A DNA stretch of 64,000 nt from an uncultured Anaerolineaceae bacterium (GCA_964611395.1 CAZSXY010000002.1:1682-65681); one strand, 5' to 3'. Positions 43,530-58,487 are shown, counted from the stretch's first letter. Made by a program: numbers and translations. The notes: a model not told the origin generated them from the letters alone.

Positions 43530-43532
43530 CGT

Positions 43533-44708
43533 TTACTGGCAAATACACGGCTTCATCACGTCAAACATATCGGAAAGCACAGCGGGGTAGGGATGGCCGA
43601 TGATGTAAGCATCTTTACCCGCCAGCGCTGATGTCAGTAGCTCAAACTGGCGGGTCTCCGCCGATTCGATCAGTTTGTTACGGGCTTCTGGAAACGCAAA
43701 ACGATACATCATGTAGGTGCTCATGAATGGAAACAGTTCGTATTGCAACGAAAACACCATCCGGCGAGCAATTTCAGCGGGGTCAATCGGTCTGGCATAC
43801 ACCTCGTCGGATTCATGGCTGAGCACCCAAAAGACCTTGTCCAAAGACCCCGACAACGTAAACGCCGACTCTGGGAACAGCTTGCGCGGATGCATATCTA
43901 CGAACATCTGGCGTTCCAGAAAGCGAACCACGCGCCCGGCTTTTCGGGAGACACTTTGAGGACCGAGGCGGCTACCACGCCGGATCACGTCCAGCGCTTT
44001 TAAGCGCGCGCGGTCGCCCATCTGGATCAAGCCATTGACACGCGGAAGCTGGTCAAGATACCAATGCCAAATCCGGATCGGTTCCGGAATGCCGAACATC
44101 TTTCCATCTGGCGTGAGGTAGACCCATTCATCGCCGACATATGCCGCGCCCTTTTCCATAAAGGCCAGCAGCGCCTCGGTTTTCCCGCCCTTTGACCAGC
44201 CGGTCGTCAACACGCCAACGCCGTCGAACGTAAATGCCGATGCATGGAGCGGGACGATGCCTTTTGCCAGCATTGTCAGGTTGATGATCGGGATCAGCAG
44301 CGGAACGGCAGACAGGCCCGACTCGCACTCAACCACGCACGGGCCGCCTATCTGGTCAAGCGCCAGCCGCACCCGCGCCTGGGCCTTGTGTTTGCTGCGC
44401 AATACGAAAAACTCATCGTCGGTGAATCCGGCTTCATGAGCGCCAAGGTAGCGGAGCGGTGACGTCAGGGACATGCGCTCGACAAAACGGATGGTGATAT
44501 CGGGTTCGCCGGGCCAGGGCCGTTGAATAGGCCCAAGTTGGCGCTCAACCGCTGCCACATCGCCGGGCAATGGATCAAGCAAACGGATTCCAACCAGGTC
44601 GTGCAGGTTGAAATCTACGACTGCATGCTGTTCTTCACTCAATATCCCATCCCCAATCCTGGTGAGATTCCCGGTAGCCACGGTGTAAGGCAAAAACGAG
44701 TCTTTCAA
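43533..44708 (-). CDS. HPr kinase C-terminal-domain-like P-loop protein
   Basis: PLHASAFTFDGVGVLTTGWSKGGKTEALLAFMEKGAAYVGDEWVYL is collinear with the HprK core (hHG..v...G.GVLitG.SG.GKSE.aLeLi.rGh.LvaDD). Confidence 0.6.
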   Translation of the reverse strand: MKDSFLPYTVATGNLTRIGDGILSEEQHAVVDFNLHDLVGIRLLDPLPGDVAAVERQLGPIQRPWPGEPDITIRFVERMSLTSPLRYLGAHEAGFTDDEFFVLRSKHKAQARVRLALDQIGGPCVVECESGLSAVPLLIPIINLTMLAKGIVPLHASAFTFDGVGVLTTGWSKGGKTEALLAFMEKGAAYVGDEWVYLTPDGKMFGIPEPIRIWHWYLDQLPRVNGLIQMGDRARLKALDVIRRGSRLGPQSVSRKAGRVVRFLERQMFVDMHPRKLFPESAFTLSGSLDKVFWVLSHESDEVYARPIDPAEIARRMVFSLQYELFPFMSTYMMYRFAFPEARNKLIESAETRQFELLTSALAGKDAYIIGHPYPAVLSDMFDVMKPCICQ

Positions 44709-44996: not shown

Positions 44997-45243
44997 GTAT
45001 CATCAAAGAATTGCTTTAGTGGTGTCGTCAAACACCTGCATCAAAACTTCCCCAATGCCTTTCTCATTCTAGGTTAGCAGAACAATAAATTTTGTCTGGT
45101 TCTTATAAAAAACTACTAAATATCGGCGCTCAGCAATGTTTTTGGGTCGCCCAACCCATATAATTCTTGAAGTAGTGGTGGTAGTACTCATTTCCTAGAT
45201 CGGAACAGAGAAGACGGAATTTAGTGTTGTAAGGGTGGGAACC

Positions 45244-46977
45244 ATGTATCAACTTCGTATTCTCATAGTGGCCGCTGTTCTTTGGGTGATCTTCTTATTC
45301 GGTTTAGCCCGCCCAGACCTCATCGGTGTAGAGTTATCCCCAGCCGTCTATGTCCTTACCCTGGGCATTGTGCTGGCTGTCTTTTTCCTGCCCGACCTGG
45401 GTGTCTGGCATTGGGCGGTAATTACCGCGCCGACCGTGGCGATCTATCTTGGCGCGGGCCTTTTCGGAGGCCTCAACCACGCGCTTTCTGACTGGCCGGT
45501 TGTGTCAATCGAGCTGATCGTGCTGTTGATCACGGTGTTCCTGGCACGCACCACATCGCTCATTGTCGCAAAGCTGGAACACGTGCTGGAGAGCCTGGTG
45601 GTTGACGCCAACAGCACACGCATTCTGTCTCCCGCCGATGGTGAGGAAACCATCAATAGCGAGTTGTTTCGCGCCAGGCGATTCGACCGGCCTGTGGCGT
45701 TTGCGCTCCTGAAGCTGGGGGATGTCCCCGAACTGCGCAATGCGCCCACCGATCGGTTTGACATCCATGCCGTACTCCAGCGCAGCTATTTGCGTTCGCG
45801 CGTCGGGCAACTTGTCGAATCCGTGTTGTATCGCACCGACCCGCTCGCCTGGTTCGATGACAACCTGGTGCTCTGCCTGCCCGAAACAACCAAACCAGAA
45901 GCAGAGAAACTCGCCCAGCAGATCTACGACCTGGTCCGGATGATGCTCAATATTCGGATACCCATCGGTATTTCCACGTTCCCTGAAAATGGGTTGATCT
46001 ACAGCGATCTAGTCGAGGCCGCGTCAAAAAACCTGTGCCAGTTTATGGAGGCAAAAGTGCAGAAGAAGGTCGCCGAAAAGCAATCGGCCAGCCAGGCGTC
46101 CCCTGCAAACATGGATGAAGGCGCGACATCGGGAAAACTGGCGCTCGACTTTTCCAACGTGAGTATGGGCAATAATGGTGCATTGAGCCTCAAACATGAG
46201 GCTGGATCGCGCTTCCTGATGGCGCTGGGCTTAGGGGCATTGTCTACCTGGGACGAACTGGTCCAACCGTTTCTGTCGCACGCCGATACGTCCATTAAAA
46301 AAGAGACGCCCTACTATGATCCGGGTTTTTGGGTCAACCGCCTGCCCTACCAGAGTGCCCAGACGCGCCGTGTCTATCTGAAGATCAAGCGCCTGATGGA
46401 CTTGACGGCAGTCATTCTCACCATGCCGCTCACGCTCCTGTTGGGGCTGACGCTGGCGTTTCTCATCTGGTTGGAAGACCGCGCGGCACCGATCTATGTC
46501 CAGCAACGGATCGGGCTGGGGGGGCGGCAGTTCAAGATGTACAAGTTCCGCTCCATGATTCCCAACGCGGATCGACGGCTGACGGAACTGGGTGTTCGTG
46601 TCAATGAACGCGGCGAGACGATCAACGAAAACGGTGACAAGCTAGAAAACGACCCGCGCATCACGCGCATGGGCAGAATCCTGCGTAAGACCAGCCTGGA
46701 TGAGCTGCCCCAACTCTGGAACGTATTGCTCGGACAGATGAGTCTGGTAGGGCCGCGCCCCACGTCGTTCGGTGTGGATAGCTACTCCTTGCTCCAGACG
46801 CAGCGCTTGAGCGTCAAGCCGGGCATCACCGGGCTGTGGCAAATCTATGATCGTGGTGACACCGACTTTGACAAGCGCCTGATCTGGGACATCAAGTATA
46901 TCGAGAAAATGAGCCTGTCATTGGACATTGAAATCCTGCTGCGCACGGTGCTCAAGTTCACCAATGGTGCACGCTAA
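45244..46977 (+). CDS. Polyprenyl-phosphate phosphoglycosyl transferase (Bac_transf) fused to N-terminal TM region and degenerate GGDEF-like domain
   Basis: C-terminus has KFRSM, SLDELPQLWNVL, LVGPRP and PGITGLWQ. The middle region has the GGDEF-domain pattern with GGDEF replaced by WFDDNL and the DxDxFK site lost. Confidence 0.8.
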   Translation: MYQLRILIVAAVLWVIFLFGLARPDLIGVELSPAVYVLTLGIVLAVFFLPDLGVWHWAVITAPTVAIYLGAGLFGGLNHALSDWPVVSIELIVLLITVFLARTTSLIVAKLEHVLESLVVDANSTRILSPADGEETINSELFRARRFDRPVAFALLKLGDVPELRNAPTDRFDIHAVLQRSYLRSRVGQLVESVLYRTDPLAWFDDNLVLCLPETTKPEAEKLAQQIYDLVRMMLNIRIPIGISTFPENGLIYSDLVEAASKNLCQFMEAKVQKKVAEKQSASQASPANMDEGATSGKLALDFSNVSMGNNGALSLKHEAGSRFLMALGLGALSTWDELVQPFLSHADTSIKKETPYYDPGFWVNRLPYQSAQTRRVYLKIKRLMDLTAVILTMPLTLLLGLTLAFLIWLEDRAAPIYVQQRIGLGGRQFKMYKFRSMIPNADRRLTELGVRVNERGETINENGDKLENDPRITRMGRILRKTSLDELPQLWNVLLGQMSLVGPRPTSFGVDSYSLLQTQRLSVKPGITGLWQIYDRGDTDFDKRLIWDIKYIEKMSLSLDIEILLRTVLKFTNGAR

Positions 46978-47120
46978 ACACACCAGGCCTTAAACATGAA
47001 AGACTCGTCTATCAGAGTCTTGCCTCAACAGCACAAAGGGCATGTCCGCCGGTTGCAGACATGCCCGAAGATATTGTGAAAGGCCCACCTGCGGCCTTGC
47101 ACAGGCAAAGGGACGTAAAG

Positions 47121-48746
47121 ATGATTCGAAGCTATACAGGTATTCTTCGACGGTGGTTCTGGTTATTGGCGCTCACCACCGTGATCGCTGGTTTGGTCAG
47201 CTACGTGGTTAGCAGCCGTGCACCGGTGCGATACTCCGCTAAAGCCAAATTACTCGTGGGGCCGGCTGCCGAAAGCCTGAATCTAGAACTGGATGATCTG
47301 CGAACGGCGGCGCAGTTACTCGAAGTATACGCTGTGCTCCCTACCATGCGCCCCTTCCTGGAAACGGTGATCGAGGATCTCAACCTGGACGTCAACCCTC
47401 TTGCACTCAAAAATGACCTCACGATCACAACGGACACAACAACACAAATCTTGAGCATCGAAGTGACCAACAACGATCGGGATCAGGCGACGCTGATCGC
47501 CAACGCGATCGCTGACAAGCTTGTTACCCGCAGCCCTTCCGGTGCGACGACGCCCAATGCATGGGACCGCCTCCGGGATCAAATCGAGCGCGTCGAAGCC
47601 ATCATTGCCAAAAGTGAGGCCCGCACTGAGACCCTTGAAGCATCCCTGGAAACCGCAGACACCGAAGCGCAACGCGCCCAAATCTCCACGCAGATTTCAG
47701 ACGAACGCTCGTACATCTCAGAAGCCGAGCGGCTGCTGATCTCGCTCTATACTGCGTTGCAGGACACGCCAAACAACCAGATCGACGTCATTGAACCGGC
47801 TGAGCGCGGCACACCAATCGATCGGGCTGTGCCCCTCAAAACAATTTTAGGCGTGCTGGGCGGGCTGGTGTTCGGCGGGGCGATTGTATTGGCTTCCGAA
47901 TATTTCAACGAGACCATCCGGCTGCCCGGCGATCTTGAAAGAATCGAGGCTGCCCCGGCGCTTGGCTCCCTCACCATCCGCCGATCGCGGCGTGCTGCAA
48001 TCCGGTCCCGGCCCCTTGTCTTGACCGATATCGAATCGGACGCCGCCGAGCGCTATCGCCGGCTTGCTATGCGCCTGCGCTTTGCCGATAACAACCAGGC
48101 CCTGCAGATGGTTGTGATTGGCGACATTCAAGGCGATGGCAGCGGCGGTGAAGTGGCCGCGAACCTCTCCGTCGTCATGGCGCAGCTTGGGGATAATATC
48201 GTGCTGGTTGATGGTGATCTGCGCAAGGGGATTGTGACGCGCATTTTCGACCTCGCAGACTCCCCTGGCCTGACCGATTTATTCGCTGACGAAATCGCTC
48301 TCGACGACATCCTCGTGCCAACCGACCAGTCAAATGGGTTGGCCATCCTGCCAAGCGGGCAGGGAACGCGTGACTTCTTTGAAATGGTGACCTCCGAACG
48401 TTTTACCGAAATCATCGAGCGGCTCACGGGCATTGCGGATCGTGTCATCATTGCGTCTCCTCCTCTGCACGCGTCTGCCGCCGGTCTGGTACTAGCTGCG
48501 CGTGCCGATGGGACTCTGATCGTCGTCAGAAGCGGGCGTAACAACCGCCAGCAACTTGGCGAGGCTCTCGCCAGCTTGCAGGAAGTGGGTGCGCACGTGA
48601 TCGGCACCATTTTAGCCGTCCAGATGCGGGAATTCGCCAGCGGGTTCCGTAGGCGGCGCGCGCGTCCAGCGGCAAAGAACACACGCAGCCAATCGTCGTC
48701 AACTCAGTCCCAGCGCCAGCCCCTGGAAAAATCAATGGAATCATGA
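47121..48746 (+). CDS. Wzz-like chain-length determinant fused to a BY-kinase-like domain with degenerate Walker motifs
   Basis: N-terminal TM, coiled-coil and second TM (PCP topology). C-domain is collinear with CpsD/Wzc ATPases, but Walker A is GDIQGDGSGGEV, Walker B is VIIASPP, and there is no C-terminal Tyr cluster. AAGGGA RBS before ATG 47121. Confidence 0.75.
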   Translation: MIRSYTGILRRWFWLLALTTVIAGLVSYVVSSRAPVRYSAKAKLLVGPAAESLNLELDDLRTAAQLLEVYAVLPTMRPFLETVIEDLNLDVNPLALKNDLTITTDTTTQILSIEVTNNDRDQATLIANAIADKLVTRSPSGATTPNAWDRLRDQIERVEAIIAKSEARTETLEASLETADTEAQRAQISTQISDERSYISEAERLLISLYTALQDTPNNQIDVIEPAERGTPIDRAVPLKTILGVLGGLVFGGAIVLASEYFNETIRLPGDLERIEAAPALGSLTIRRSRRAAIRSRPLVLTDIESDAAERYRRLAMRLRFADNNQALQMVVIGDIQGDGSGGEVAANLSVVMAQLGDNIVLVDGDLRKGIVTRIFDLADSPGLTDLFADEIALDDILVPTDQSNGLAILPSGQGTRDFFEMVTSERFTEIIERLTGIADRVIIASPPLHASAAGLVLAARADGTLIVVRSGRNNRQQLGEALASLQEVGAHVIGTILAVQMREFASGFRRRRARPAAKNTRSQSSSTQSQRQPLEKSMES

Positions 48747-48753: not shown

Positions 48754-50025
48754 ATGCACACGATGATAGAACACACCTTCGACGAACTAGAGGCGGCTGG
48801 CATCGTTTATTGCCTTTTGCGAGACGCAACCCGGCTTGACCATCTTGCGCAAGGCGGCGAAATCGACATGCTGGTTCAGGCAAACCAGCTCAAAGCCCTG
48901 AAACAACTCCTATGGCAACTCGGTTATGTGCCGCTGCCGTCGATGGGTTATGAACCGCACCATTTCTTTGTCCGGTACGAACGGGAATCCGACGGCTGGT
49001 ACAAGCTCGACGTGGTCACCAAGATCGTATACGGCAAGAGCGTGAAGTTCCTCCACACGGACCTGGCTGCAGCCTGTTTGCGCAACCGCCAGCGTGTGGG
49101 GCCAACCTATGCGCCTTCCCCCGAAGACGAGTTTGTGACCCTGTTGCTCCATTGCCTGCTGGACAAAGGGCGTTTCGCCCCCCACCGGCGCACAAGGTTG
49201 GAGGCGCTGCGCCATGCGGTCACGCAGCCCGAGTACGTCTCAACATTGCTTGCCACGTATTGGCTGCCCGATGCGACATTCGATCAGATCACCGGGCACA
49301 TCGACGCGGGGGACTGGGACGGCTTGCTGGCTGCCCGCGAACGCGTCACCGCGCACCTCAAGCGCCGGAAGCCTGTCGCCCAGGTCGTCGCCATTCTGCG
49401 ACGGAAGTCCGGGCGTATCCTGCACCGGATCGGGGGGCTGGCACACCCGGTCATGCCGTCGGTGGCCCTGCTGGGGCCGGACGGCGCAGGGAAATCGACC
49501 CTGGCCGAGAGCCTGAGCGAGCGCTTCTGCATGCCGGTTCGGTCGGTGTACATGGGCCTGTACCCCAATTCCGCGCGGAAAAAGCCCGCCAGACGAGTGC
49601 CAGGCCTGGGTTTCATGAAATTATTGACCGTCCAGTGGCGACGATACCTCCAGGCACGCTCGGCGCAGGCACGCGGCCACCTGGTAGTCTTCGACCGCTA
49701 CGCTTATGACGCGCTATTGCCGCAACCGCAGCGCCGCAATCCGCTCAAGCGCCTGCGCCGGTGGCTGCTGGCCCATGCTTGCCCGCCGCCTCACCTGGTG
49801 CTGGTGCTGGACGCGCCCGCCGAAGTGCTGTATGCGCGCAAAGGCGAACATACGGTGGGTAAGTTGGAATCGCAACGGCAGGCCTACCGGTCGTTACAAA
49901 CCCGGCTGTCCAACGTCACGATCCTCGACGCGACCCGCGAAGCCGAGCACGTCCGCCGCCAGGCCAATACGGCTATCTGGGAGACCGTTTTCAGACGAAG
50001 AAACAGCAAGGGCAAGGTCACATGA
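48754..50025 (+). CDS. Nucleotidyltransferase-like (NTP_transf_5-like) domain fused to P-loop kinase-like domain
   Basis: N-half has GGEIDMLV...LGYVPL...YKLDVVTKI. C-half has Walker A VALLGPDGAGKST, LVVFDRY and LDAPAEVLYARKGE, paralogous to 39958-40671. Confidence 0.55.
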   Translation: MHTMIEHTFDELEAAGIVYCLLRDATRLDHLAQGGEIDMLVQANQLKALKQLLWQLGYVPLPSMGYEPHHFFVRYERESDGWYKLDVVTKIVYGKSVKFLHTDLAAACLRNRQRVGPTYAPSPEDEFVTLLLHCLLDKGRFAPHRRTRLEALRHAVTQPEYVSTLLATYWLPDATFDQITGHIDAGDWDGLLAARERVTAHLKRRKPVAQVVAILRRKSGRILHRIGGLAHPVMPSVALLGPDGAGKSTLAESLSERFCMPVRSVYMGLYPNSARKKPARRVPGLGFMKLLTVQWRRYLQARSAQARGHLVVFDRYAYDALLPQPQRRNPLKRLRRWLLAHACPPPHLVLVLDAPAEVLYARKGEHTVGKLESQRQAYRSLQTRLSNVTILDATREAEHVRRQANTAIWETVFRRRNSKGKVT

Positions 50026-51299
50026 CGGCGACATTCACCCCTACCGCAGAGCAAGAAACTACAGCCCAGAAACCAATGCCTAAAGTGGCATATATAATGT
50101 CGCGCTTCCCTAAAATTACCGAGACGTTTATCCTGTACGAAATCCTCGCCGTGCAGAAACAGGGCGTGCCCGTCGAACTCTACCCGCTCCAGCGTGAACG
50201 CACATCCGTCATGCATCCCGAAGCCAGGCCGCTGGTAGAAGCTGCTCATTTCCTGCCGTTGATCGCCTGGCCGATCATCCGGTCGCATCTCCACTACTTG
50301 CGCACCAGGCCCCGCGCCTACGTTAAGGCATTGTGGGATCACCTGCGAGCGACCTGGGGCAGCAAGCGCTATTTCTTTGGCGCACTGGCATTCTTCCCCA
50401 AGACGGTACGCTTTGCGCACATGATGGAAGCGGCGGGTATTGAGCATATTCACGCGCACTTTGCAAGCCACCCGGCGGCAGCAGCATTTGTGATTCATCG
50501 CCTGACCGGGATTCCCTACAGCTTCACGGCACACGGTTCTGATTTGCATCGCGATCGCCACATGCTATGCCAAAAAACGGCTGAAGCCGCTTTTGTGGTG
50601 ACGATCTCAAACTTCAATCGCGACATCTTTGTTCAGGCGTGCGGCGACTGGGTGCGTGACAAAGTCCACGTGCTCCATAGCGGCGTCGATACCGAGGCCT
50701 TTCAACCGTTAGACGCCGACCGCCCCCCAGGCCAACCGTTCACCATCCTTTGCATCGGCACATTGCACGAGGTCAAAGGGCATACCCACCTCATCGAAGC
50801 CTGTCGCCTGCTCCGCGAACGTAACATCGATTTTTCGTGTCACTTTGTGGGCGATGGACCCGATCACGCGGCACTTACCATCCAGGTAGCCAGTGCTGGT
50901 CTGTCCGATCACATCCATTTTGAAGGGCGGTTGACACGCCAGGATGTGATTGCCATGCTGCGGCGGGCTGATGTCGTCGTTGCGCCCAGCGTGCCGTCGC
51001 GTGACAACCGGCGCGAAGGCATCCCGGTGGTGCTGATGGAAGCCATGAGCAGTGGCGTGCCGGTCATCGCCAGCGACCTATCGGGCATCCCGGAACTGGT
51101 CGAGCACGAGGTAAGCGGCCTGCTGGTCTCGCCCGGTGACCCGGCAGCGATTGCCAGCGCGATCGAACGCCTGGCCCGCGATCCGGCGCTTCGGCGGCGA
51201 CTCGGCCAGGGCGGGCGCGACAAAGTGCAGCGTGAGTTCGACCTTGACACCAATGCTTCACTGCTGGTGAAGCACATACAAAGCAGGGAGCAGGCATGA
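50022..51299 (+). CDS. Glycosyltransferase family 4 (WcaL-like)
   Basis: KVAYIMSRFPKITETFILYEI N-terminus and EGIPVVLMEAMSSGVPVIAS E-x7-E region. ATGA overlap with the upstream gene. Confidence 0.85.
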   Translation: MTATFTPTAEQETTAQKPMPKVAYIMSRFPKITETFILYEILAVQKQGVPVELYPLQRERTSVMHPEARPLVEAAHFLPLIAWPIIRSHLHYLRTRPRAYVKALWDHLRATWGSKRYFFGALAFFPKTVRFAHMMEAAGIEHIHAHFASHPAAAAFVIHRLTGIPYSFTAHGSDLHRDRHMLCQKTAEAAFVVTISNFNRDIFVQACGDWVRDKVHVLHSGVDTEAFQPLDADRPPGQPFTILCIGTLHEVKGHTHLIEACRLLRERNIDFSCHFVGDGPDHAALTIQVASAGLSDHIHFEGRLTRQDVIAMLRRADVVVAPSVPSRDNRREGIPVVLMEAMSSGVPVIASDLSGIPELVEHEVSGLLVSPGDPAAIASAIERLARDPALRRRLGQGGRDKVQREFDLDTNASLLVKHIQSREQA

Positions 51300-52456
51300 G
51301 CACAGTGACTTTCTGGGTAGCAGTGGCGTTGTTGGCTTATACTTATGTGTTGTTCCCCATCATGCTGGTGGTGCGCGGCCTGCTGAGGCAACGCCCGGTC
51401 AACGCCGCAGACATTGAGCCACGCGTCAGCATGATCATCGCCGCCTATAACGAAGCGGACAGCATCGGGGCCAAGATTGACAACCTGCTCTCGCTGGATT
51501 ACCCCGAAGACCGGCTTGAAGTCGTGATCGCCTCCGATGGATCGGATGATGGCACGGTCGCTGTTGTCGCCAGTTATACGGATGAACGCATCAAGCTGCT
51601 GGCCCTGCCACGCCAGGGAAAAGCGGGCGCGTTAAACGACGCCGTCAATGCCGCCACCGGAGACATTCTGGTCTTTTCGGATGCCAACAGCATGTACGCT
51701 CCCGATGCCATTCGCCGGTTGGTCCGGCACTTTGCCGACCCCCGTGTCGGCGGCGTTGCCGGGAACCAGCGTTACCTGTCGGAACAAGACTCTGACTCCG
51801 GCGCAACCGGAGCCGGAGAGCGCAGCTATTGGGGACTTGATCGTCTGCTCAAGCGGATCCAGAGCCGGGCCGGGAACACGATCTCGGCCACCGGCGCAAT
51901 CTACGCGATCCGGCGCTCGCTGTTCCAGCCGGTTCCTGAAGGGGTGACCGACGACTTTGTAACATCCACCCGTGTCATTGCCCAGGGGTACCGGCTTGTG
52001 TTCGACCCGGAAGCCGTCGCCTTCGAGCCGGTCGCCCAATCCAGCGAAGTCGAGTTCGGACGCAAGGTGCGCGTGATGACGCGCGGGTTGCGGGGCGTGA
52101 TCGTCATGCGCGAATTGCTCAACCCCTTTCGCTTCGGCTTCTATGCGGTGCAGCTATTCTCACACAAGGTACTGCGGCGGCTGATGTTCGTCCCGCTCAT
52201 GGCTGTGTTCGCGGCCAATCTTTTCTTGTGGGGCGATGGGTTGTTTTACAAGCTGGCCATGCTCGCGCAACTCCTTTTCTACGGGTGCGCCTTGCTGGGG
52301 CTGTTCCTGCGCGGGCACAAAATCGGACGGGTGAAGGTCATCGCGATTCCATTCTATTTCTGCGTGGTCTATTGCGCGGCCTTGATCGCAACGTGGAATG
52401 TGATTCGCGGACGACGCATCACAAGCTGGACGCCGCAAAGGCAGGTAGCACACTGA
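51296..52456 (+). CDS. Membrane-associated glycosyltransferase family 2
   Basis: VSMIIAAYNE, ASDGSDDGT and VFSDANS motifs, flanked by N- and C-terminal TM helices. Confidence 0.85.
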   Translation: MSTVTFWVAVALLAYTYVLFPIMLVVRGLLRQRPVNAADIEPRVSMIIAAYNEADSIGAKIDNLLSLDYPEDRLEVVIASDGSDDGTVAVVASYTDERIKLLALPRQGKAGALNDAVNAATGDILVFSDANSMYAPDAIRRLVRHFADPRVGGVAGNQRYLSEQDSDSGATGAGERSYWGLDRLLKRIQSRAGNTISATGAIYAIRRSLFQPVPEGVTDDFVTSTRVIAQGYRLVFDPEAVAFEPVAQSSEVEFGRKVRVMTRGLRGVIVMRELLNPFRFGFYAVQLFSHKVLRRLMFVPLMAVFAANLFLWGDGLFYKLAMLAQLLFYGCALLGLFLRGHKIGRVKVIAIPFYFCVVYCAALIATWNVIRGRRITSWTPQRQVAH

Positions 52457-52514
52457 CCGGCCACACGTGCTAAATTCTGGACAGAGGCTTAGTGTTGAGC
52501 ACACGGATACCCGA

Positions 52515-53990
52515 ATGATCACGGCAAAGCGCAACCCCAAACGCCCCTTATCACAAACTCAGGTGCTGGCCGGACTGGTCGCCGCCGCGAGTGCGGTGGT
52601 GGGGCTGGCCCTGGCAAATAGCAGCCCTCTCCTGGCATTGGGTGTGCTGGTGTTGGCAGGTATGGCGTTCGTACTTCTGTCCAGGCCGGAATGGGTGACG
52701 CTGATCGTGATCTTCGCGCTTTATTCCAACCTGACGGTTATCGCCATCCGGCAAGGCGTGCCCCCTCAAATCGCCGGGGGTATCTTGCTGGCACTCGGTT
52801 ATCCGCTGTTCCACTACCTGATTGGTCATCGCGAGCGAATCATCATCACCGCGCCGTTCGTGTTGATGGTGATCTACCTTGCCACGTTGCTTTTGTCCGC
52901 CGCTTTTTCTGACCAACCGACCCTGACATTTGAGCGCATCCAGAACTTCGTGCTCGAAGGGCTGATCCTGTACTTTCTGGTGATCAACGCGGTAAGAAAC
53001 CGGGCGATATTACGGCTAACGATCTGGGTATTGTTGCTTGCCGGGAGCCTGATGGGCGCATTGACCATTTTCCAGGGCGTGACACAGAGTTATGACAACG
53101 ATTTCGGCGGATTAGCCCAGGCCACCGATGCCGAGGTCCCAGTGAGCGAAGAAGACTTTGTGGGTAACACAATCGTTGTCAAGCGGCTGGCAGGCCCTAT
53201 CGGTGAAAAGAATCGCTACGCCCAGGTATTGGTCGTCCTGATCCCATTGGCGATCACGCGCATGTTAGCCGAGCGTCGCAAGTCATTGCGCTTTGCCGCT
53301 TTCGTGGCAATGATGCTAATTCTCGGCGGCATTCAATTCACCTTCTCGCGCGGCGCGGGGGTGGCCATCGGCGTGATCCTTCTGGCTTTATTGCCCATGC
53401 GCCTGGCGAAAGCACGCCATTTTATGATCGTGGGCACGTTGATCGTCATTGCCGTGTTCGCGCTTGCCCCCGGCTATTTCTATCGTCTCTCGACGCTGGG
53501 CGACGTCGCCGATCTGGTCAGCGGAGACCCAACCGAAGCGGGCTCATCGGTGCAGGGGCGCGCAACCGAAAACCTGGCCACGTTGCTCATGTTCCTTGAC
53601 CATCCTGTTGTCGGCGTCGGGCCGGGCCAGGCACCACGCCTCATGCGTGATTACGGGCGCGGCATAGGCTTCCGGCTGCTTGATCCCAATCGCCGGGCGC
53701 ACAACATGTACCTGGAAGAACTGGCCGACACGGGCATTCTTGGCTTCAGCGCGTTCATCGCCATTGTGTTGGTCACGACGTTCACGCTGGACACCATCCG
53801 CCGCCGGGCGCGCGCAGGCGACCCGGACACGTTTTACCTGGCTTCCGGCTTCCTGTTGAGCCTCATCGCCTATCTCACAACAGCGATCTTTCTGCACCTG
53901 GCATATGCGCGTTATTACTGGTTTTTGCTCGCCATTGCCGGTGCTGCAGCTCACATCTTAAAGCAGGGCACATCCAAGGCACGCGTATAA
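52515..53990 (+). CDS. O-antigen ligase/polymerase-like (Wzy_C family) membrane protein
   Basis: ~11 TM helices with a large loop containing FTFSRGAGVAIG and the HNMYLEELADTG block. The start is ambiguous (GTG 52467 or ATG 52515). Confidence 0.7.
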   Translation: MITAKRNPKRPLSQTQVLAGLVAAASAVVGLALANSSPLLALGVLVLAGMAFVLLSRPEWVTLIVIFALYSNLTVIAIRQGVPPQIAGGILLALGYPLFHYLIGHRERIIITAPFVLMVIYLATLLLSAAFSDQPTLTFERIQNFVLEGLILYFLVINAVRNRAILRLTIWVLLLAGSLMGALTIFQGVTQSYDNDFGGLAQATDAEVPVSEEDFVGNTIVVKRLAGPIGEKNRYAQVLVVLIPLAITRMLAERRKSLRFAAFVAMMLILGGIQFTFSRGAGVAIGVILLALLPMRLAKARHFMIVGTLIVIAVFALAPGYFYRLSTLGDVADLVSGDPTEAGSSVQGRATENLATLLMFLDHPVVGVGPGQAPRLMRDYGRGIGFRLLDPNRRAHNMYLEELADTGILGFSAFIAIVLVTTFTLDTIRRRARAGDPDTFYLASGFLLSLIAYLTTAIFLHLAYARYYWFLLAIAGAAAHILKQGTSKARV

Positions 53991-54064
53991 CCACCATTTA
54001 ACGAGGGCTTGGGGTTATGGTGAATTCCCTTACAGCCCCCGCGCAATTGAAACAGGTGTAATGA

Positions 54065-56656
54065 GTGAAACACGACCAACTGATCAGTAACCTGATCGGA
54101 AAACTCAACAGCCGGGATAACGACGAAACGCACGCGGCAGTCGACGCGCTGCGCGAACTGGGGTGTTTGAGTGATGGCACGCTGCGCGGGGGCAACTTCC
54201 TGGGCGCGAACCTGCAAGGGTTGCAACTGGGCGGCGCAGACCTGCATAGCGCACGCCTCGAATGGTCACAGCTAGACAATGCCGACCTGACGGAAGCCAA
54301 CCTGCAGGAAGCCAACCTGTCAGTGACATCGCTCAAACACGCCAGGCTGGTGGGCGTCGATTTGCGCCACGCCCAACTGTTAAAGGCGCGCCTGCAAGGA
54401 GCAGACCTGCGCTCAGCGCTGCTCAACTCCGCAGAACTGGGAGAAGCTCGCTTGCACGGCGCGAACCTCAGGAGCGCGAACCTCAGCAAAGCGCGCTTGG
54501 GGCAGGCAGAACTGGTGGGGGCTGACCTGTCAAACGCCACCCTCAAACAAACGTGGCTGCGCGGAGCCGACCTGGAAGACACAAGCATGGAAAAGGCCGA
54601 CATGCGCCAGGCTTACCTGGGAGAAGCCAATCTGCGGCAGGCCATCTTGCGATCCGCCAACCTGGCCGGGGCTATCCTGACCGGCGCGACCCTGCTGAAA
54701 GCCGACCTCCGCCATGCCAACCTGACCGGCGCGCGCCTGACATCCGCTGACCTGCGCGGCGCAGACCTGAGCGATGCGTGCTTGCGGGAGTGCAATCTGA
54801 GCGACGCGAACCTGCAGAATGCCGATCTCACCGGGGTTGACCTGCGCGGCGCGAATCTGACGGGCACAGACCTGTTCGCAGCCTCGCTGGATCAGGCATA
54901 CTTCGACGAATCCACCATCCTGCCAGATGGACGCGCATGGTCACCCGCCGTCGGTGAACCCTTCGCCATGCTCACGCCATTGCCAGACATACCCACAGAA
55001 GAAACGCCAAACGTGTCCATTACCCCTTTACTGAAGCCATCGCACGTTGAACCAGCCGGCGGCGGCAACGGCCATCCGGTTGCCCCGGTTGCCGAAATAC
55101 CGCGTGCGATAGTAAGGAAAAAGAAACGACCCAAAGACATAAGTGCCGCCGGGTCAACGCGCCGCCAGATTCGCGGGTCAAGCCTGTTGCTGGTCGGACG
55201 TATGATCTCGATGGTCGTCAACTTCGTCGTTCAGGTCTTGACGGTTCGCTACCTGACCAAGGCCAACTACGGCGCGTTTGCCTATGCGCTCTCCATCGTG
55301 TCACTGGGCGAAACTATTGTCACCCTGGGGCTGGACAGGGCCGTCACACGCTTCGTGCCGATTTACCAGGAACGCGACGAGTACCCCAAGATGTTCGGCA
55401 CACTCGTGATGGTCTTCGGCACGATTCTTTCGCTGGGAATCGCGCTCGTTCTGGCCGTCGTGCTGTTGCAAGATTTCATTGCCACACACCTGATCAGCGA
55501 CCAAAAAGCGGTCGAGTTGCTGGTGATCCTGGTCGCGTTATCGCCGGTGCAGGCCATCGACAATGTGTTGAACGGGTCATTCGCGGTGTTCTCGAAACCC
55601 AGCGCGATTTTCTTCCGCAAGTACGTCTTAGGCCCGGCCCTAAAAATTACCGTTGTCGCGTTGCTGATTCTGGGCAACAGTGGGGTGGAATTCCTCGCGG
55701 CGGGCTACCTGGGCGCAGGATTGGTGGGGATTTCAATCTTCTCGGTCATTCTATGGCGCATGTTACGCGCCCAAGACTTCTGGGCGCAGTTCAGCCTGAA
55801 GACGATTCAGTTTCCGGCCCGCGAAGTGCTGGCGTTCACCGTGCCGCTGCTGGCATCTGACATGGTATTCGTGGTGATGAACACGGTCGATGCCATTCTG
55901 TTGGAACGCTACAAAGGAACTGTCGATGTGGCCGCGTTCCGCGCCGTCCAGCCTACAGCCCGCTTGAATCAAATGGTTCTGTCGAGCTTTGCCCTGCTCT
56001 TCACCCCCGCAGCCGCACGAATGTTTGCCCGCAACGACAAAGAAGGCATCAACAGCCTGTATTGGCAAAATGCCGTGTGGGTCGCGATTGTGTCATTCCC
56101 GGTGTTTGCGCTCACTTTTTCGCTGGCCGAACCCCTGACCGTGCTCTTGTACGGTTCGCGCTATGAGCAATCGGCGCTGATCATGGCCATGTTGTCGCTG
56201 GGGTACTACTTCAATGCGGCAACCGGCCAAAACGGGCTGACGCTCAAGGTGCTGGGCAAGCTGCGCTACATCGTCGGCGTCGATATCCTGGCGGCGGTGA
56301 TCAACCTGCTGGTCAACCTCACGCTGATCCCACGCTATGGCGCGATGGGAGCCGCCATCGGCACGATGACCACGTTGATCCTGTTCAACATACTCAAGCA
56401 AATCGGGTTAATGTTGGGCACGGGCATTCGCGTGTTTGATCTCAATTACCTCAGGGTGTATCTAAGTATCGTGGTAGGCGCGGTGGGGCTGCTGGCGATC
56501 CAGGCGTTCTTCGTGCTCCCACTCGCCGTCGGTTTTGCCATTACGGCGCTGGTATCGCTGCTCGTATTGCGCCTTAACCGGCGGATGCTCAACCTGGAAG
56601 TGATGTTCCCCGAACTACTGCGCATTCCCATCGTGCGCTGGTTCTTTGGCGAGTAG
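54065..56656 (+). CDS. Pentapeptide-repeat domain fused to a MOP/Wzx-type polysaccharide flippase
   Basis: Residues ~35-285 are continuous A(D/N)LxX pentapeptide repeats (ANLQGLQLGGADLHSARLEWSQLDNADLTEANL...). After a basic linker there is a ~500-aa, ~14-TM Polysacc_synt-like region. Confidence 0.8.
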   Translation: MKHDQLISNLIGKLNSRDNDETHAAVDALRELGCLSDGTLRGGNFLGANLQGLQLGGADLHSARLEWSQLDNADLTEANLQEANLSVTSLKHARLVGVDLRHAQLLKARLQGADLRSALLNSAELGEARLHGANLRSANLSKARLGQAELVGADLSNATLKQTWLRGADLEDTSMEKADMRQAYLGEANLRQAILRSANLAGAILTGATLLKADLRHANLTGARLTSADLRGADLSDACLRECNLSDANLQNADLTGVDLRGANLTGTDLFAASLDQAYFDESTILPDGRAWSPAVGEPFAMLTPLPDIPTEETPNVSITPLLKPSHVEPAGGGNGHPVAPVAEIPRAIVRKKKRPKDISAAGSTRRQIRGSSLLLVGRMISMVVNFVVQVLTVRYLTKANYGAFAYALSIVSLGETIVTLGLDRAVTRFVPIYQERDEYPKMFGTLVMVFGTILSLGIALVLAVVLLQDFIATHLISDQKAVELLVILVALSPVQAIDNVLNGSFAVFSKPSAIFFRKYVLGPALKITVVALLILGNSGVEFLAAGYLGAGLVGISIFSVILWRMLRAQDFWAQFSLKTIQFPAREVLAFTVPLLASDMVFVVMNTVDAILLERYKGTVDVAAFRAVQPTARLNQMVLSSFALLFTPAAARMFARNDKEGINSLYWQNAVWVAIVSFPVFALTFSLAEPLTVLLYGSRYEQSALIMAMLSLGYYFNAATGQNGLTLKVLGKLRYIVGVDILAAVINLLVNLTLIPRYGAMGAAIGTMTTLILFNILKQIGLMLGTGIRVFDLNYLRVYLSIVVGAVGLLAIQAFFVLPLAVGFAITALVSLLVLRLNRRMLNLEVMFPELLRIPIVRWFFGE

Positions 56657-56668: not shown

Positions 56669-58483
56669 TTGCTTGAGCTTACACTAGCCACCGATTTTAT
56701 TCCCGGCTCAAATCTGCGCGGCAATGTGGCCGGAGCCAACTGGACCTATCTACTACCCGACCTGAACCTGGAAGCAATGCTCTGTGTAGGCGCGCCTTCG
56801 ACGGCAGCCTTGCACACGCTGGCTTCGCTGGCCCAGTCCGTTATCGTGTGCACACCCTCGCATGCCAGCCTCGATACTAGAGCGCTCGCTGGCTGGCCGA
56901 ACGTCACGCTACTGGCCATTGCCAGCAACGGAACGCTGCCCCTTGATGACCTGAGCGTCGATCTGGTATTTGTGACAGACCGGCATCTTGTGCGCGATCA
57001 CCGGCAACTGGAGAACGAGATACGCCGCGTGCTGCGCCCGCGCGGGCTGGCGTACTACGAAACCCGTAGCCCGCTGCGCCGGATGCCGTCAGCCGACAAC
57101 CTTCTGGGTTCCGGAAGCGCGCAACACTTCTGGCTGACGCCGCTCGGTGGCGAGATGCACACCGCGGTTCCGGCCAGCGATGCCGTCACACGCCGCTTTT
57201 TCCTGCGGCAGGCGTTGTTCAGCCCGTCGATCACCGTGCACACGGCGAAACGCGCTATACGCCGCATGCGCAGACGACGCCAGACCGTCGCGTCGCCGGA
57301 CACCCCACCCTCGCCACCAGAAGACCGCGCCCCGCAACGCCTGGGTGACAGGATGCGGTTGCTTGGCGATCGCGTGTTCGAAGCGCTGGCCAGCGCCGAG
57401 GGTACACTGCACCGGCATACCACGCTGATCGGGCGGTATGGCGTCCTCGAAGGTCGCGCGGGCGCTCCCCTTACCGGCGACCCACCCGCCTACCTGTGCG
57501 ACATGGCGGAGCAGGCGGGTCTTGACCTGCACCAATACGGGTGGGGATTGTGGGCCGGAGGCCAATACAGCTCGCGGAAGCTGCTATTCTTCCTCGTCGA
57601 TCGGGAATCGGCGTCGCTGCGCTACCTGGTCAAAATGGTTCGCGACCCGTCGTTCAATACCCGGTTGGAGAACGAATGCGCGGCCCTCAAAGACCTGGAA
57701 GCACGCAACTTCGCGCACGATCACGCGCTGCCAAGGGTTGTCTTTCATGGCCATCACCACCACCTGGCAATCGTCGGCGAGACGGCGGTGCAGGGAGTTC
57801 CCTTCAAGAGCAAAACGCGCCTCACGGCGTCATGTCCCTACGCCCATGCCGTGATCGAGTGGCTGACAGATTTGGGCGCAACCACCGCCTCGCCCGACGA
57901 CGTCGCGCCGCAGGACGTCGCCCGCGCTCTGAACACCCTTTTCGAGCGCTTCCAGGCCATTTACCGGTTACCACCTGCCGAGCGCGACTTCCTCAGCGAA
58001 CAGATCGCCGCTTTGGGCAATAGCCGGACGCCGTTTCCGCTGGTATTTCAGCACGGCGATCCCGGCCCCTGGAATATGCTGGTCACGCCTGACGACACGG
58101 TTGCCTTGTTGGATTGGGAATCTGCCGAGGCGAAGGGCATCCCGTTGTGGGACCTGTTTTACTTCTTGCGATCATATGCCGTGAACGTTGCGCGTTCCAA
58201 CGGGACGGCTGATCGGGTGGAGGGGTTTGCCAAACACTTTCTAACCCGCTCGTCGCTTAACCACATGATAGTGGATGCCACGCGCCAGTACTGCACGCGG
58301 ATCGGGCTGGCTGGCGAATTCATTGGCCCGTTGTTTTACACCTGCTGGATGCATCGTGCGCTCAAGCAATCAACTCTGCTACAATCTCATACATTGGCAG
58401 ACGGGTACTACTTCCGCCTGCTTCGTTACACCATCCAGCAACACGACGCACCAGCACTCAGACAATTATTCACGCAGACCTGA
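56669..58483 (+). CDS. Fusion of methyltransferase-like domain and APH/protein-kinase-like domain
   Basis: The N-half is collinear with 42906-43529. The C-half has QHGDPGPWNMLV and LLDWESA, collinear with 41875-42906. TTG start. Confidence 0.6.
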   Translation: MLELTLATDFIPGSNLRGNVAGANWTYLLPDLNLEAMLCVGAPSTAALHTLASLAQSVIVCTPSHASLDTRALAGWPNVTLLAIASNGTLPLDDLSVDLVFVTDRHLVRDHRQLENEIRRVLRPRGLAYYETRSPLRRMPSADNLLGSGSAQHFWLTPLGGEMHTAVPASDAVTRRFFLRQALFSPSITVHTAKRAIRRMRRRRQTVASPDTPPSPPEDRAPQRLGDRMRLLGDRVFEALASAEGTLHRHTTLIGRYGVLEGRAGAPLTGDPPAYLCDMAEQAGLDLHQYGWGLWAGGQYSSRKLLFFLVDRESASLRYLVKMVRDPSFNTRLENECAALKDLEARNFAHDHALPRVVFHGHHHHLAIVGETAVQGVPFKSKTRLTASCPYAHAVIEWLTDLGATTASPDDVAPQDVARALNTLFERFQAIYRLPPAERDFLSEQIAALGNSRTPFPLVFQHGDPGPWNMLVTPDDTVALLDWESAEAKGIPLWDLFYFLRSYAVNVARSNGTADRVEGFAKHFLTRSSLNHMIVDATRQYCTRIGLAGEFIGPLFYTCWMHRALKQSTLLQSHTLADGYYFRLLRYTIQQHDAPALRQLFTQT

Positions 58484-58487
58484 TGCC

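What the first reader, a model, noticed from the sequence alone, without database searches (positions are those of the whole stretch)
54065..56656. Pentapeptide-repeat beta-helix fused to a Wzx-type flippase
A single 863-aa ORF joins three parts: a short HEAT-like N-terminus, ~250 aa of uninterrupted pentapeptide repeats (A[D/N]LxX), and a ~14-TM MOP/Polysacc_synt flippase. A basic Pro-rich linker separates the repeats from the membrane part. Pentapeptide-repeat proteins are soluble right-handed beta-helices, known as DNA mimics (Qnr/MfpA) or of unknown role. A covalent fusion to a lipid-linked-oligosaccharide flippase is not something I recognise as described. A second, unfused Wzx is present at 21318-22913.
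Basis: seen in the sequence. Interest (0 to 1): 0.65.

Follow-up and report, generated by a model that had tools for sequence, protein, structure and literature searches.

The report
Pentapeptide-repeat rod fused to Wzx flippase
A real, rare and so far undescribed gene from filamentous-type Chloroflexota bacteria joins a rigid pentapeptide-repeat rod, predicted to sit inside the cell, to the membrane transporter that flips sugar-lipid building blocks outward; this gives a concrete handle on what such repeat rods do in cell-envelope sugar export.

Summary
ORF 54065-56656 (+) encodes one 863-aa protein:
- a two-helix cap (residues 1-43);
- 48 pentapeptide repeats in one unbroken register (about 12 beta-helix coils, residues 44-290);
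- a disordered Pro-rich linker (291-365);
- a 14-TM Wzx/PST flippase (366-863) whose predicted fold matches WzxE and MurJ.

It is not an artefact. Near-identical copies occur in two other metagenomes, and collinear fused homologues (57-60% identity) occur in at least 8 further assemblies, four of them Anaerolineae MAGs. A distant second lineage (P0122/P0388) carries the same module.

The repeat domain is under purifying selection as strong as the flippase (dN/dS about 0.1). It has family-specific surface motifs that are absent from 120 generic pentapeptide proteins.

The gene sits in a complete, syntenic Wzx/Wzy polysaccharide operon. The closest orthologues in the same operon lack the module and have no separate pentapeptide gene, so it is an optional accessory. 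Topology (K+R 23 inside, 1 outside) puts it in the cytoplasm, tethered to TM1 at the substrate gate.

My best reading is a tethered protein-docking rod (inferred, not shown), not a DNA mimic. The fusion is rare (9 clusters seen; 4 of the best 80 of 137 related species genomes) and absent from the searched literature. I rate it a new variant of a known kind, of moderate interest.

The parts
54054..54058 (+). Shine-Dalgarno-like AGGTG, 6 nt upstream of the GTG start
   Evidence: Read directly from the sequence. The start position agrees with the aligned N-termini of the fused homologues.
54065..56656 (+). Whole CDS, 863 aa plus stop: pentapeptide-repeat / PST (Wzx-type) flippase fusion
   Evidence: ORF list, Pfam, full-length homologues P0002-P0007, AF2 model with mean pLDDT 88.1.
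54065..54193 (+). N-terminal two-helix cap (residues 1-43) on the beta-helix
   Evidence: Helices 3-14 and 19-31 in the AF2 model, pLDDT 84-94. The motif is conserved among fused homologues. No HEAT Pfam hit. dN/dS 0.15-0.23.
54194..54934 (+). Pentapeptide-repeat right-handed beta-helix (residues 44-290): 48 repeats, about 12 coils, ending in the conserved cap motif FDxxTxLPDGxxW
   Evidence: PF00805 E=7e-56. Unbroken register. pLDDT 92-98. Foldseek matches to HetL 3du1 and Np275/276 2j8k. dN/dS 0.07-0.12. Invariant outward residues W67, K107, E127, Y184, G186, E187, R224. Signature motifs absent from generic PRPs.
54935..55159 (+). Disordered Pro-rich linker (residues 291-365) with a KKKRPK patch just before TM1
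   Evidence: pLDDT below 50 for residues 306-366. 13 Pro, pI 8.4. Only 15-20% identity to other fused lineages, with relaxed dN/dS.
55160..56653 (+). 14-TM MOP-superfamily / PST-family (Wzx-type) flippase domain (residues 366-863), starting at the invariant RRQIRGSSLLL
   Evidence: PF01943 and PF13440. Foldseek TM-score 0.80 to WzxE 9g9n and 0.79 to MurJ 6nc6. 70-75% identity to unfused Chloroflexota proteins that NCBI names 'flippase'. K+R 23 inside versus 1 outside for the N-in topology.
45235..46977 (+). Operon partner: priming phosphoglycosyl transferase (Bac_transf)
   Evidence: PF02397 E=1e-59. Syntenic in L001.
47061..48746 (+). Operon partner: Wzz-like chain-length/co-polymerase protein
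   Evidence: PF02706 at its cut-off, E=1.6e-5. Syntenic in L008.
48754..50025 (+). Operon partner: NTP_transf_5 plus P-loop kinase-like protein. In other lineages this protein type is fused to the flippase N-terminus.
   Evidence: Pfam. N-terminal fusions P0237, P0254 and P0146.
50022..51299 (+). Operon partner: GT4 glycosyltransferase
   Evidence: PF00534 E=9e-41.
51296..52456 (+). Operon partner: GT2 glycosyltransferase
   Evidence: PF00535 E=6e-28.
52467..53990 (+). Operon partner: Wzy_C-type polymerase/ligase-like membrane protein, directly upstream of the fusion
   Evidence: PF04932 E=1.5e-18. In unfused orthologues its stop overlaps the flippase start.
56669..58483 (+). Operon partner: methyltransferase plus APH-type kinase-like protein, directly downstream. 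In other lineages APH is fused to the flippase C-terminus.
   Evidence: PF01636 and PF08241. C-terminal fusions P0136 and P0259.

Best explanation
The gene encodes a working Wzx/PST-type flippase for the undecaprenyl-diphosphate-linked repeat unit made by the surrounding Wzx/Wzy operon. In a few Anaerolineae lineages this flippase carries an extra cytoplasmic module.

The module is a helix-capped pentapeptide-repeat beta-helix of about 12 coils (roughly 6 nm). A floppy Pro-rich leash of 60-85 residues ties it to the cytoplasmic end of TM1. In solved MOP flippases, TM1 together with TM8 forms the lateral gate through which the lipid-linked substrate enters.

The rod most likely acts as a tethered protein-docking surface. 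A conserved edge on coils 2-8 (W67, K107, E127, Y184/G186/E187) would bind a cytoplasmic partner. The variable coils 9-12 and the leash would act as a spacer. Binding would hold the partner at the flippase gate, or hold the flippase where the partner is. This would tune or couple flipping rather than being required for it. The likeliest partner is a cytoplasmic enzyme of the same pathway.

Shown: the fusion is real; the domain folds (predicted with high confidence); the cytoplasmic placement (predicted); purifying selection; family-specific conserved surface residues; the module is optional in orthologous operons.

Inferred: that it binds a protein, which protein, and the effect on flipping.
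For: The fusion is real and recurrent.

Folds:
- AF2 mean pLDDT is 88, with the beta-helix at 92-98 and the linker below 50.
- Foldseek matches WzxE (0.80) and MurJ (0.79) for the membrane part, and HetL and Np275/276 for the rod.

Cytoplasmic placement:
- K+R is 23 in the loops predicted inside versus 1 outside for the N-in topology.
- The N-terminus has none of the hydrophobic stretch a signal peptide needs (sequence; nothing before residue 374 reaches the threshold in the hydropathy scan). No signal-peptide predictor was run.
- Wzx N- and C-termini were mapped experimentally to the cytoplasm (PMC2932511).
- 14-TM TacF tolerates an N-terminal BRIL fusion and has its gate between TM1 and TM8 (PMC13385700).

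Functional constraint:
- dN/dS is 0.07-0.12 for the repeat domain versus 0.09-0.11 for the flippase. The linker is freer.
- Between the two distant fused lineages the rod is 51% identical while the flippase is 43%.

Specific surface:
- Invariant outward-facing residues cluster on one edge of coils 2-8. Coils 9-12 show whole-repeat indels.
- The motifs LEW[AS]xL, AY[LF]GEA and LPDGxxW occur in 7-8 of 8 fused proteins and in 0 of 120 best generic PRPs.

Accessory role: the unfused orthologues P0008, P0013 and P0015 sit in the same operon with no pentapeptide gene nearby.

Flippase termini as attachment points: other family members carry NTP_transf_5, kinase-like or deacetylase domains at the N-terminus and APH or Wzy_C at the C-terminus. 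All of these are operon neighbours here.

Precedent for PRPs as protein binders and in envelope glycan export: HetL-HetR, HglK, and the PilQ-associated PRP (PMC8145042, PMC7476756, PMC12475490).
Against: - No partner has been identified.
- Fused and unfused operons have the same gene content, so no operon gene co-varies with the module.
- The surface-conservation signal is modest: 10, 7, 4 and 2 invariant outward positions per face, several of them Gly that may be structural.
- dS is near saturation (0.8-1.5), so the dN/dS values are approximate.
- The AF2 run gave no reliable inter-domain geometry (pTM 0.63; no PAE or coordinates were available).
- Topology is predicted, not measured.
- Most PRPs have no known function, so the analogy is weak.
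Confidence: 0.45

Rival explanations
1. Spatial targeting. The cytoplasmic rod binds a positional landmark (septum, pole or cytoskeletal element), so that repeat units are flipped at defined sites along the filament. This would resemble the membrane pentapeptide protein HglK of filamentous cyanobacteria.
For: HglK (4 TM plus 36 repeats) localises to septa and is needed to deposit the heterocyst glycolipid layer (PMC8145042). All fused proteins come from Anaerolineae-type Chloroflexota, many of which are filamentous (my own knowledge). No operon-encoded partner co-varies with the module, which fits a partner encoded elsewhere.
Against: The morphology of these uncultured MAG organisms is unknown. 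Close relatives lack the module. HglK has the opposite domain order, and no homology beyond the repeats was shown. There are no localisation data.
Confidence: 0.2
2. Intramolecular regulator. The tethered rod docks on the flippase's own cytoplasmic face or on the TM1/TM8 gate. It acts as an autoinhibitory plug or conformational brake that is released by a signal.
For: The rod is attached directly to TM1, which forms one side of the lateral gate in MOP flippases (PMC13385700). The long flexible leash allows it to fold back. The module is optional, as expected for a regulator.
Against: AF2 gave no confident docked arrangement (linker pLDDT below 50, pTM 0.63). The flippase's cytoplasmic loops are equally conserved in fused and unfused orthologues, so there is no sign of a co-evolved docking site.
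Confidence: 0.15
3. Membrane-tethered DNA mimic of the Qnr/MfpA type that binds DNA gyrase or another DNA-binding protein.
For: The fold matches QnrB1, AlbG and MfpA in Foldseek. The rod is mildly acidic (pI 5.4).
Against: NCBIfam Qnr and MfpA models score far below their cut-offs (80 versus 240 bits; 70 versus 360 bits). The repeat register is unbroken, without the two loops that interrupt Qnr proteins. HetL-type and designed solenoids match better than Qnr. The operon context is purely glycan synthesis. A membrane tether makes little sense for a gyrase protector.
Confidence: 0.03
4. The rod is extracytoplasmic (N-out), like the luminal pentapeptide domain of SV2 transporters, and contacts the polymer or the Wzy/Wzz machinery outside the membrane.
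For: SV2A-C carry a luminal pentapeptide domain on a 12-TM transporter (PMC8145042). Wzy and Wzz act on the outer face of the membrane.
Against: The first 43 residues are a polar, charged helix pair with no hydrophobic signal-peptide-like stretch (no predictor was run). K+R is 23 versus 1 in favour of N-in. There are 10 K/R in the 30 residues before TM1. The TM count is even, and MOP topology has both termini in the cytoplasm (PMC2932511).
Confidence: 0.03
5. Assembly or frameshift artefact, or a decaying passenger domain with no function.
For: The architecture is rare and the closest orthologues lack it.
Against: There are more than 10 independent assemblies from four data sources, and all are collinear. 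dN/dS is about 0.1 in the repeat domain. There are no stops or frame breaks.
Confidence: 0.01

Closest known systems
Wzx / PST-family flippases of the MOP superfamily (WzxE, PDB 9g9n; 14-TM relatives MurJ and TacF)
   Same: Pfam PF01943/PF13440. The predicted fold superposes on WzxE (TM-score 0.80) and MurJ (0.79). Predicted N-in/C-in topology. Located in a Wzx/Wzy operon with a priming transferase, glycosyltransferases, Wzy and Wzz.
   Different: It carries about 365 extra N-terminal residues (cap, 48-repeat beta-helix, leash). Sequence identity to the solved flippases is only 15-17%, and a sequence search of the PDB found nothing. It has 14 helices like MurJ and TacF, not 12 like WzxE.
Unfused Chloroflexota orthologues (for example P0008, P0009, P0015; NCBI name 'flippase', Aggregatilineaceae)
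   Same: 70-75% identical over the flippase domain. Same operon order. They also have a short Pro-rich N-tail before the invariant RRQIRGSSLLL.
   Different: No cap or repeat module, and no separate pentapeptide gene nearby.
HglK of Nostoc/Anabaena PCC 7120 (membrane pentapeptide protein needed for the heterocyst glycolipid layer)
   Same: A long pentapeptide array covalently joined to a polytopic membrane part, with a link to export or deposition of an envelope glycoconjugate in filament-forming bacteria.
   Different: HglK has 4 TM helices at the N-terminus and its repeats at the C-terminus. It has no MOP transporter domain and belongs to a different phylum. Its mechanism is also unknown.
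SV2A/B/C synaptic vesicle transporters
   Same: A transporter with a covalently attached pentapeptide beta-helix.
   Different: Eukaryotic MFS fold. The short (4.5-coil) helix is inserted in a luminal loop, not placed at a cytoplasmic N-terminus.
Soluble pentapeptide proteins: HetL and Np275/276 (protein binders or unknown) and Qnr/MfpA/AlbG (DNA mimics)
   Same: Right-handed quadrilateral beta-helix fold, with A(D/N)LXX consensus repeats.
   Different: Those are free-standing with 5-9 coils. Qnr proteins have loop interruptions and act as dimers. This one has 12 uninterrupted coils, is membrane-tethered, and has its own signature motifs (LEW[AS]xL, AY[LF]GEA, LPDGxxW).

Membership tests
MOP superfamily, PST (Wzx-type) flippase | Match to Pfam Polysacc_synt (PF01943) above the gathering score | tested here: met
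   81.6 bits versus a cut-off of 28.2, residues 370-644. PF13440 scores 52.9 versus 23.
MOP superfamily, PST (Wzx-type) flippase | MOP fold: two 6-helix lobes (TM1-6, TM7-12), with TM13-14 in the 14-TM members | tested here: met
   The AF2 model has about 14 long helices with pLDDT mostly above 90. Foldseek TM-score is 0.80 to WzxE 9g9n and 0.79 to MurJ 6nc6 over about 510 columns. This is a prediction, not a solved structure.
MOP superfamily, PST (Wzx-type) flippase | Both termini cytoplasmic | tested here: met
   Positive-inside count is 23 versus 1. This agrees with the experimentally mapped Wzx topology (PMC2932511). Prediction only.
MOP superfamily, PST (Wzx-type) flippase | Encoded with the other parts of a Wzx/Wzy-dependent pathway (priming transferase, glycosyltransferases, Wzy, Wzz) | tested here: met
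   Bac_transf, Wzz-like, GT4, GT2 and Wzy_C lie on the same strand directly upstream. The arrangement is syntenic in 6 related loci.
MOP superfamily, PST (Wzx-type) flippase | Translocates a polyprenyl-diphosphate-linked oligosaccharide across the membrane | not testable with these tools
   Needs genetics or a reconstituted flipping assay.
Pentapeptide repeat protein (PF00805) | At least 8 contiguous pentapeptides with consensus A(D/N)LXX | tested here: met
   48 contiguous repeats in one register. PF00805 E=7e-56.
Pentapeptide repeat protein (PF00805) | Right-handed quadrilateral beta-helix, four repeats per coil | tested here: met
   The AF2 model has one short strand every 5 residues from 44 to 290, with pLDDT 92-98. 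Foldseek probability is 1.00 to HetL, Np275/276 and designed solenoids. Prediction only.
Qnr / MfpA DNA-mimic pentapeptide proteins | Score above the NCBIfam equivalog cut-off | tested here: not met
   Qnr 80.4 versus 240 bits. MfpA 69.7 versus 360 bits. All Qnr subfamilies score far below their cut-offs.
Qnr / MfpA DNA-mimic pentapeptide proteins | Qnr-type loops interrupting the helix, and about 8-9 coils | tested here: not met
   The register is unbroken over 48 repeats, about 12 coils.
Qnr / MfpA DNA-mimic pentapeptide proteins | Binds or protects DNA gyrase | not testable with these tools
   Needs a biochemical assay.
Alr5209 family pentapeptide protein (NCBIfam NF052603) | Whole-protein score above the cut-off as a true equivalog (a small protein of about 113 profile positions) | tested here: inconclusive
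   159 bits exceeds the cut-off of 125, but only by summing 4 partial matches of a 113-position profile along a 240-residue repeat array inside an 863-aa membrane protein. I do not count this as membership.
HglK-like membrane pentapeptide proteins | N-terminal 4-TM anchor followed by a C-terminal repeat array | tested here: not met
   The domain order is reversed and the membrane part is a 14-TM MOP transporter. HglK architecture is taken from PMC8145042.
HEAT / HEAT-like repeats (N-terminal 43 residues) | Match to a HEAT-type profile, or an array of helical hairpins | tested here: not met
   No Pfam hit at E<=10 for the N-terminal 52 residues of two family members. The model shows a single two-helix hairpin that caps the beta-helix.

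The most novel reading that the evidence does not exclude
The rod is a dedicated cytoplasmic control element for lipid-linked glycan export. By binding a pathway enzyme, or the flippase's own TM1/TM8 gate, it decides when or where finished repeat units are flipped. That would give pentapeptide repeats a first defined mechanistic role in envelope glycan export. It would also link this fusion with HglK (glycolipid layer) and with the PilQ-associated pentapeptide protein of cyanobacterial slime nozzles as one recurring theme. The same module on a CPBP-type membrane protease (P0414) hints at a portable 'membrane-protein adaptor' cassette.
Probability: 0.25. Interest if true: 0.65.

Novelty: new variant of a known kind. 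Interest (0 to 1): 0.42.

Why it matters
Pentapeptide-repeat proteins number in the tens of thousands, yet apart from the gyrase-targeting DNA mimics almost none has a known mechanism (PMC8145042).

A natural, selected fusion works as a Rosetta stone. It says this particular repeat rod works at the cytoplasmic face of a lipid-linked-sugar flippase. That turns an open question into concrete experiments: pull-downs with a defined bait, rod-deletion complementation, and point mutants of a mapped conserved edge.

Accessory cytoplasmic domains on Wzx-type flippases did not come up in my literature searches. How flipping is coupled to cytoplasmic assembly and tailoring of the repeat unit is, to my knowledge, poorly understood.

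The finding also adds to scattered hints (HglK, the PilQ nozzle protein) that pentapeptide rods take part in envelope glycoconjugate export.

On the limits: the organisms are uncultured, the module is dispensable in close relatives, and the architecture is a rare lineage-specific variant rather than a new kind of system.

Tried and rejected
(1) Homology search with the N-terminal 300 residues alone. The word pre-filter was swamped by generic cyanobacterial pentapeptide proteins at 40-50% identity through the repeat consensus. Even the true fused homologues were not listed. The search says nothing about the module's origin.

(2) Sequence search of the PDB with the flippase part found no hit at E<=1. 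Only the fold comparison worked.

(3) Pfam scan of the N-terminal cap and of the linker at E<=10 found nothing meaningful, so 'HEAT-like' stays unverified.

(4) Crude Kyte-Doolittle TM scan. It was too noisy to count helices and was replaced by helices from the AF2 model.

(5) The first attempt at a full-length 120-sequence alignment and tree timed out. It was redone on the trimmed flippase domains.

(6) Separate pentapeptide gene next to unfused orthologues (a gene-fission scenario): none in L001-L003 or L008-L010. Rejected.

(7) Operon gene that co-varies with the module. A phytase-like gene sits upstream in L004 and L005, but not in the window or in L011. Rejected as an obligate partner.

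(8) Recent repeat expansion at the DNA level. Only 2-copy 15-bp matches were found, so the repeats are old.

(9) Internal start or promoter that could give a flippase-only product. There is no promoter-like site and no well-spaced Shine-Dalgarno sequence before Met305. No support.

(10) DNA-mimic reading: rejected on NCBIfam scores, the unbroken register and the operon context.
Full report
**Observation**

The window holds an uninterrupted ORF at 54065..56656 on the + strand. It has a GTG start and encodes 863 aa. AGGTG lies 6 nt upstream of the start.

- Pfam places seven Pentapeptide (PF00805) stretches in residues about 40-285 (E=7e-56).
- Polysacc_synt (PF01943) covers residues 370-644 with 81.6 bits against a cut-off of 28.2. 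PF13440 covers residues 394-703.
- Written in fives, residues about 46-285 form 48 repeats in one unbroken register. The centre Leu is present in 44 of 50 units and the i-2 Ala in 38 of 50, which gives about 12 coils.
- The linker (291-365) has 13 Pro and a KKKRPK patch, pI 8.4.
- The 'second Wzx' at 21318-22913 is real. It is on the minus strand and is a distant paralogue, 27% identical over 208 residues.
No HEAT profile matches the N-terminus even at E<=10. The linker is basic only in this protein; in the homologues it is Pro-rich but acidic.

**Not an artefact**

- The database protein P0001 differs from the window protein by one residue, G56A. It was assembled in two separate JGI samples (L006, L007).
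- Six further full-length fused clusters were found: P0002-P0007, 851-921 aa, 57-60% identity, 100% coverage, from JGI, ENA and Logan.
- In the alignment the cap, the repeats, the end motif FDxxTxLPDGxxW, the linker and TM1 are collinear and in-frame in all of them.
- A scan of species-representative genomes found 137 relatives. Among the best 80, four carry the fused gene. All four are Anaerolineae-class Chloroflexota MAGs: L012, L013, L014 and L050, the last labelled Aggregatilineaceae.
- An exhaustive HMMER search of 1.84 billion representatives found a second, distant fused representative. P0122 is 901 aa and 45% identical, with PF00805 plus PF01943. It has one close relative, P0388.
- P0012 is a truncated copy on a 1.8-kb contig.

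**Context**

The gene lies in a complete Wzx/Wzy-type operon, all on the + strand. In order:

1. Bac_transf priming transferase (45235-46977)
2. Wzz-like protein (47061-48746)
3. NTP_transf_5/P-loop kinase-like protein (48754-50025)
4. GT4 (50022-51299)
5. GT2 (51296-52456)
6. Wzy_C (52467-53990)
7. the fusion
8. methyltransferase plus APH-like protein (56669-58483)
9. an unknown protein

The same order is found around fused homologues (L004, L005) and around unfused ones (L001-L003, L008-L010). In the unfused loci the Wzy_C stop overlaps or abuts the flippase start, and no pentapeptide gene is nearby. The module is therefore an optional N-terminal addition to an orthologous flippase, not a fusion of two neighbouring genes.

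**Evolution**

- Over the flippase domain, the window protein is closer to the unfused P0008, P0009 and P0011 (75%) than to the other fused proteins (68-72%).
- In a neighbour-joining tree the 7 fused proteins fall in three sub-lineages of a 15-leaf clade, each next to unfused proteins.
- The modules are nevertheless homologous. The motifs LEW[AS]xL, AY[LF]GEA and LPDGxxW occur in 7-8 of 8 fused proteins, including the distant L011/P0122. They occur in none of the 120 best generic pentapeptide proteins.
- Between the window protein and L011 the rod is 51% identical while the flippase is 43%.
- This pattern fits an old fusion with repeated loss, or a module that moves between flippase genes. 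I could not tell these apart.

**Selection**

- Within the L004/L013/L014/L050 subclade, Nei-Gojobori dN/dS is 0.07-0.12 for the repeat domain and 0.09-0.11 for the flippase. It is 0.15-0.23 for the cap and 0.09-0.21 for the linker.
- Between lineages the linker keeps only 15-20% identity.
- dS is 0.8-1.5, close to saturation, so these values are approximate. The repeat domain is still clearly not decaying.

**Structure**

- AlphaFold2 on a 46-sequence alignment gave mean pLDDT 88.1 and pTM 0.63. It shows helices 3-14 and 19-31 capping a beta-helix (44-290, pLDDT 92-98), a disordered segment (306-366, pLDDT below 50), and an all-helical membrane domain.
- Foldseek against the PDB matched the membrane part to the Lipid III flippase WzxE (9g9n, TM-score 0.80, inward-facing). 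It also matched 14-TM MurJ (6nc6, 0.79 over about 510 columns).
- The rod matched HetL, Np275/276 and designed solenoids. Qnr, AlbG and MfpA matched more weakly.
- Using the model's helices as 14 TM segments, the N-in topology puts 23 K+R in cytoplasmic loops and 1 outside. Ten of the 23 lie in the 30 residues before TM1.
- Three further points place the rod in the cytoplasm. The N-terminus is polar, with no hydrophobic stretch before residue 374 (no signal-peptide predictor was run). Wzx termini were mapped to the cytoplasm experimentally (PMC2932511). In TacF and MurJ the lateral gate lies between TM1 and TM8, and an N-terminal BRIL fusion is tolerated (PMC13385700). The rod is thus tethered next to the substrate gate.

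**Surface**

Invariant outward-facing residues across the four fused lineages cluster on one edge of coils 2-8: W67, K107, E127, Y184, G186 and E187, plus R224. Coils 9-12 differ by whole-repeat insertions and deletions. This suggests a binding edge followed by a spacer. The statistics are modest.

**Mechanism**

- Other members of this flippase family carry different fused domains. At the N-terminus these are NTP_transf_5, thymidylate-kinase-like, AAA or polysaccharide deacetylase domains. At the C-terminus they are APH or Wzy_C. All of these are operon neighbours here, so the flippase's cytoplasmic ends are habitual attachment points for pathway proteins.
- Putting this together with the optional nature of the module, its selection, its conserved edge and the floppy leash, I think a tethered protein-docking rod is most likely. 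It would couple or tune flipping. The partner is unknown.
- Rivals, in order of weight: targeting to a cellular landmark (HglK-like; PMC8145042), and an intramolecular plug on the gate.
- A DNA-mimic role is unlikely. Qnr and MfpA models score far below cut-off, the register is unbroken, and the context is glycan synthesis.
- An outside-facing rod is unlikely given the charge bias and MOP topology.

**Comparison and novelty**

- The membrane part is a member of the PST/Wzx family. The rod is a member of the pentapeptide family. Neither is new.
- The combination is rare: 9 clusters seen, 2 of the best 150 representatives, and 4 of the best 80 species genomes.
- Full-text searches for 'pentapeptide repeat' with 'flippase' or 'Wzx' returned no paper describing it. 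A 2021 review of pentapeptide proteins lists HglK and SV2 as the membrane-attached cases.
- The proteins do sit in public databases with an automatic double COG label.
- I rate it a new variant of a known kind. It is of moderate interest, chiefly as a handle on pentapeptide-repeat function.

Noticed in passing
P0414 (JGI protein, 731 aa, single 4.6-kb contig); not in the window: The same cap, repeat and linker module is fused to a CPBP/CAAX-protease-type membrane domain (PF02517) instead of a flippase. It is 54% identical and collinear over 373 residues with P0122, including AYLGEA and LPDGxxW. The module may be a portable cassette for polytopic membrane proteins, or the contig may be chimeric.
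   Followed up: partly
P0122 / P0388 linker (L011 4726-7431): The long linker of the second fused lineage contains 'SSLMLVGRTSS'. This resembles the flippase's own start 'RGSSLLLLGK' about 55 residues downstream. It may be a vestige of a duplicated or recombined junction. P0414 keeps 'LLLIGRTVS' at the same place.
   Followed up: no
Related proteins P0136, P0259, P0205, P0237, P0254, P0146, P0177: This flippase family is repeatedly fused to its operon neighbours. APH-like kinase or Wzy_C sits at the C-terminus. NTP_transf_5, thymidylate-kinase-like, AAA or polysaccharide deacetylase domains sit at the N-terminus. This is Rosetta-stone evidence that these proteins work together.
   Followed up: partly
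window 24924-29276 (+) and 29835-33968 (-): Two giant proteins (1450 and 1377 aa) lie convergently between the polysaccharide clusters, with 2 and 3 CBM96 carbohydrate-binding modules respectively.
   Followed up: no
window 34873-44708 (-): A second glycan-related cluster lies on the minus strand. It encodes SH3_3/DUF4350, ABC_transp_aux, polysaccharide deacetylase, ATP-grasp (Ter-type), thymidylate-kinase-like, GT4 and APH-like proteins. These partly mirror the domain set of the fusion's operon.
   Followed up: no
window 19131-22913 (-): A third cluster holds a sulfotransferase (19131-20039), a GT4 (20090-21295) and the unfused Wzx (21318-22913). It suggests a sulfated polysaccharide.
   Followed up: no
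window 58275-59939 (+): The mechanically listed 554-aa ORF overlaps the upstream APH-like gene by 209 nt. Orthologues in related loci are 465-496 aa, so the true start is probably further downstream. The protein has no Pfam match.
   Followed up: no
window 56669-58483 (+) versus L006 5605-7164: The gene downstream of the fusion is 604 aa in the window (methyltransferase plus APH). In the near-identical contig L006 it is called as 519 aa, with an overlapping next gene. This may be a frameshift or a strain difference in that assembly.
   Followed up: no
L004 6947-8062 and L005 6562-7674: A phytase-like (PF02333) gene sits between Wzy_C and the fused flippase in two fused loci. It is absent from the window and from L011.
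   Followed up: partly
window 54065-56656, NCBIfam result: The 'Alr5209 family' equivalog model passes its cut-off (159 versus 125 bits), but only by summing four partial hits along the long repeat array. Long repeat proteins can trip equivalog thresholds in this way.
   Followed up: yes
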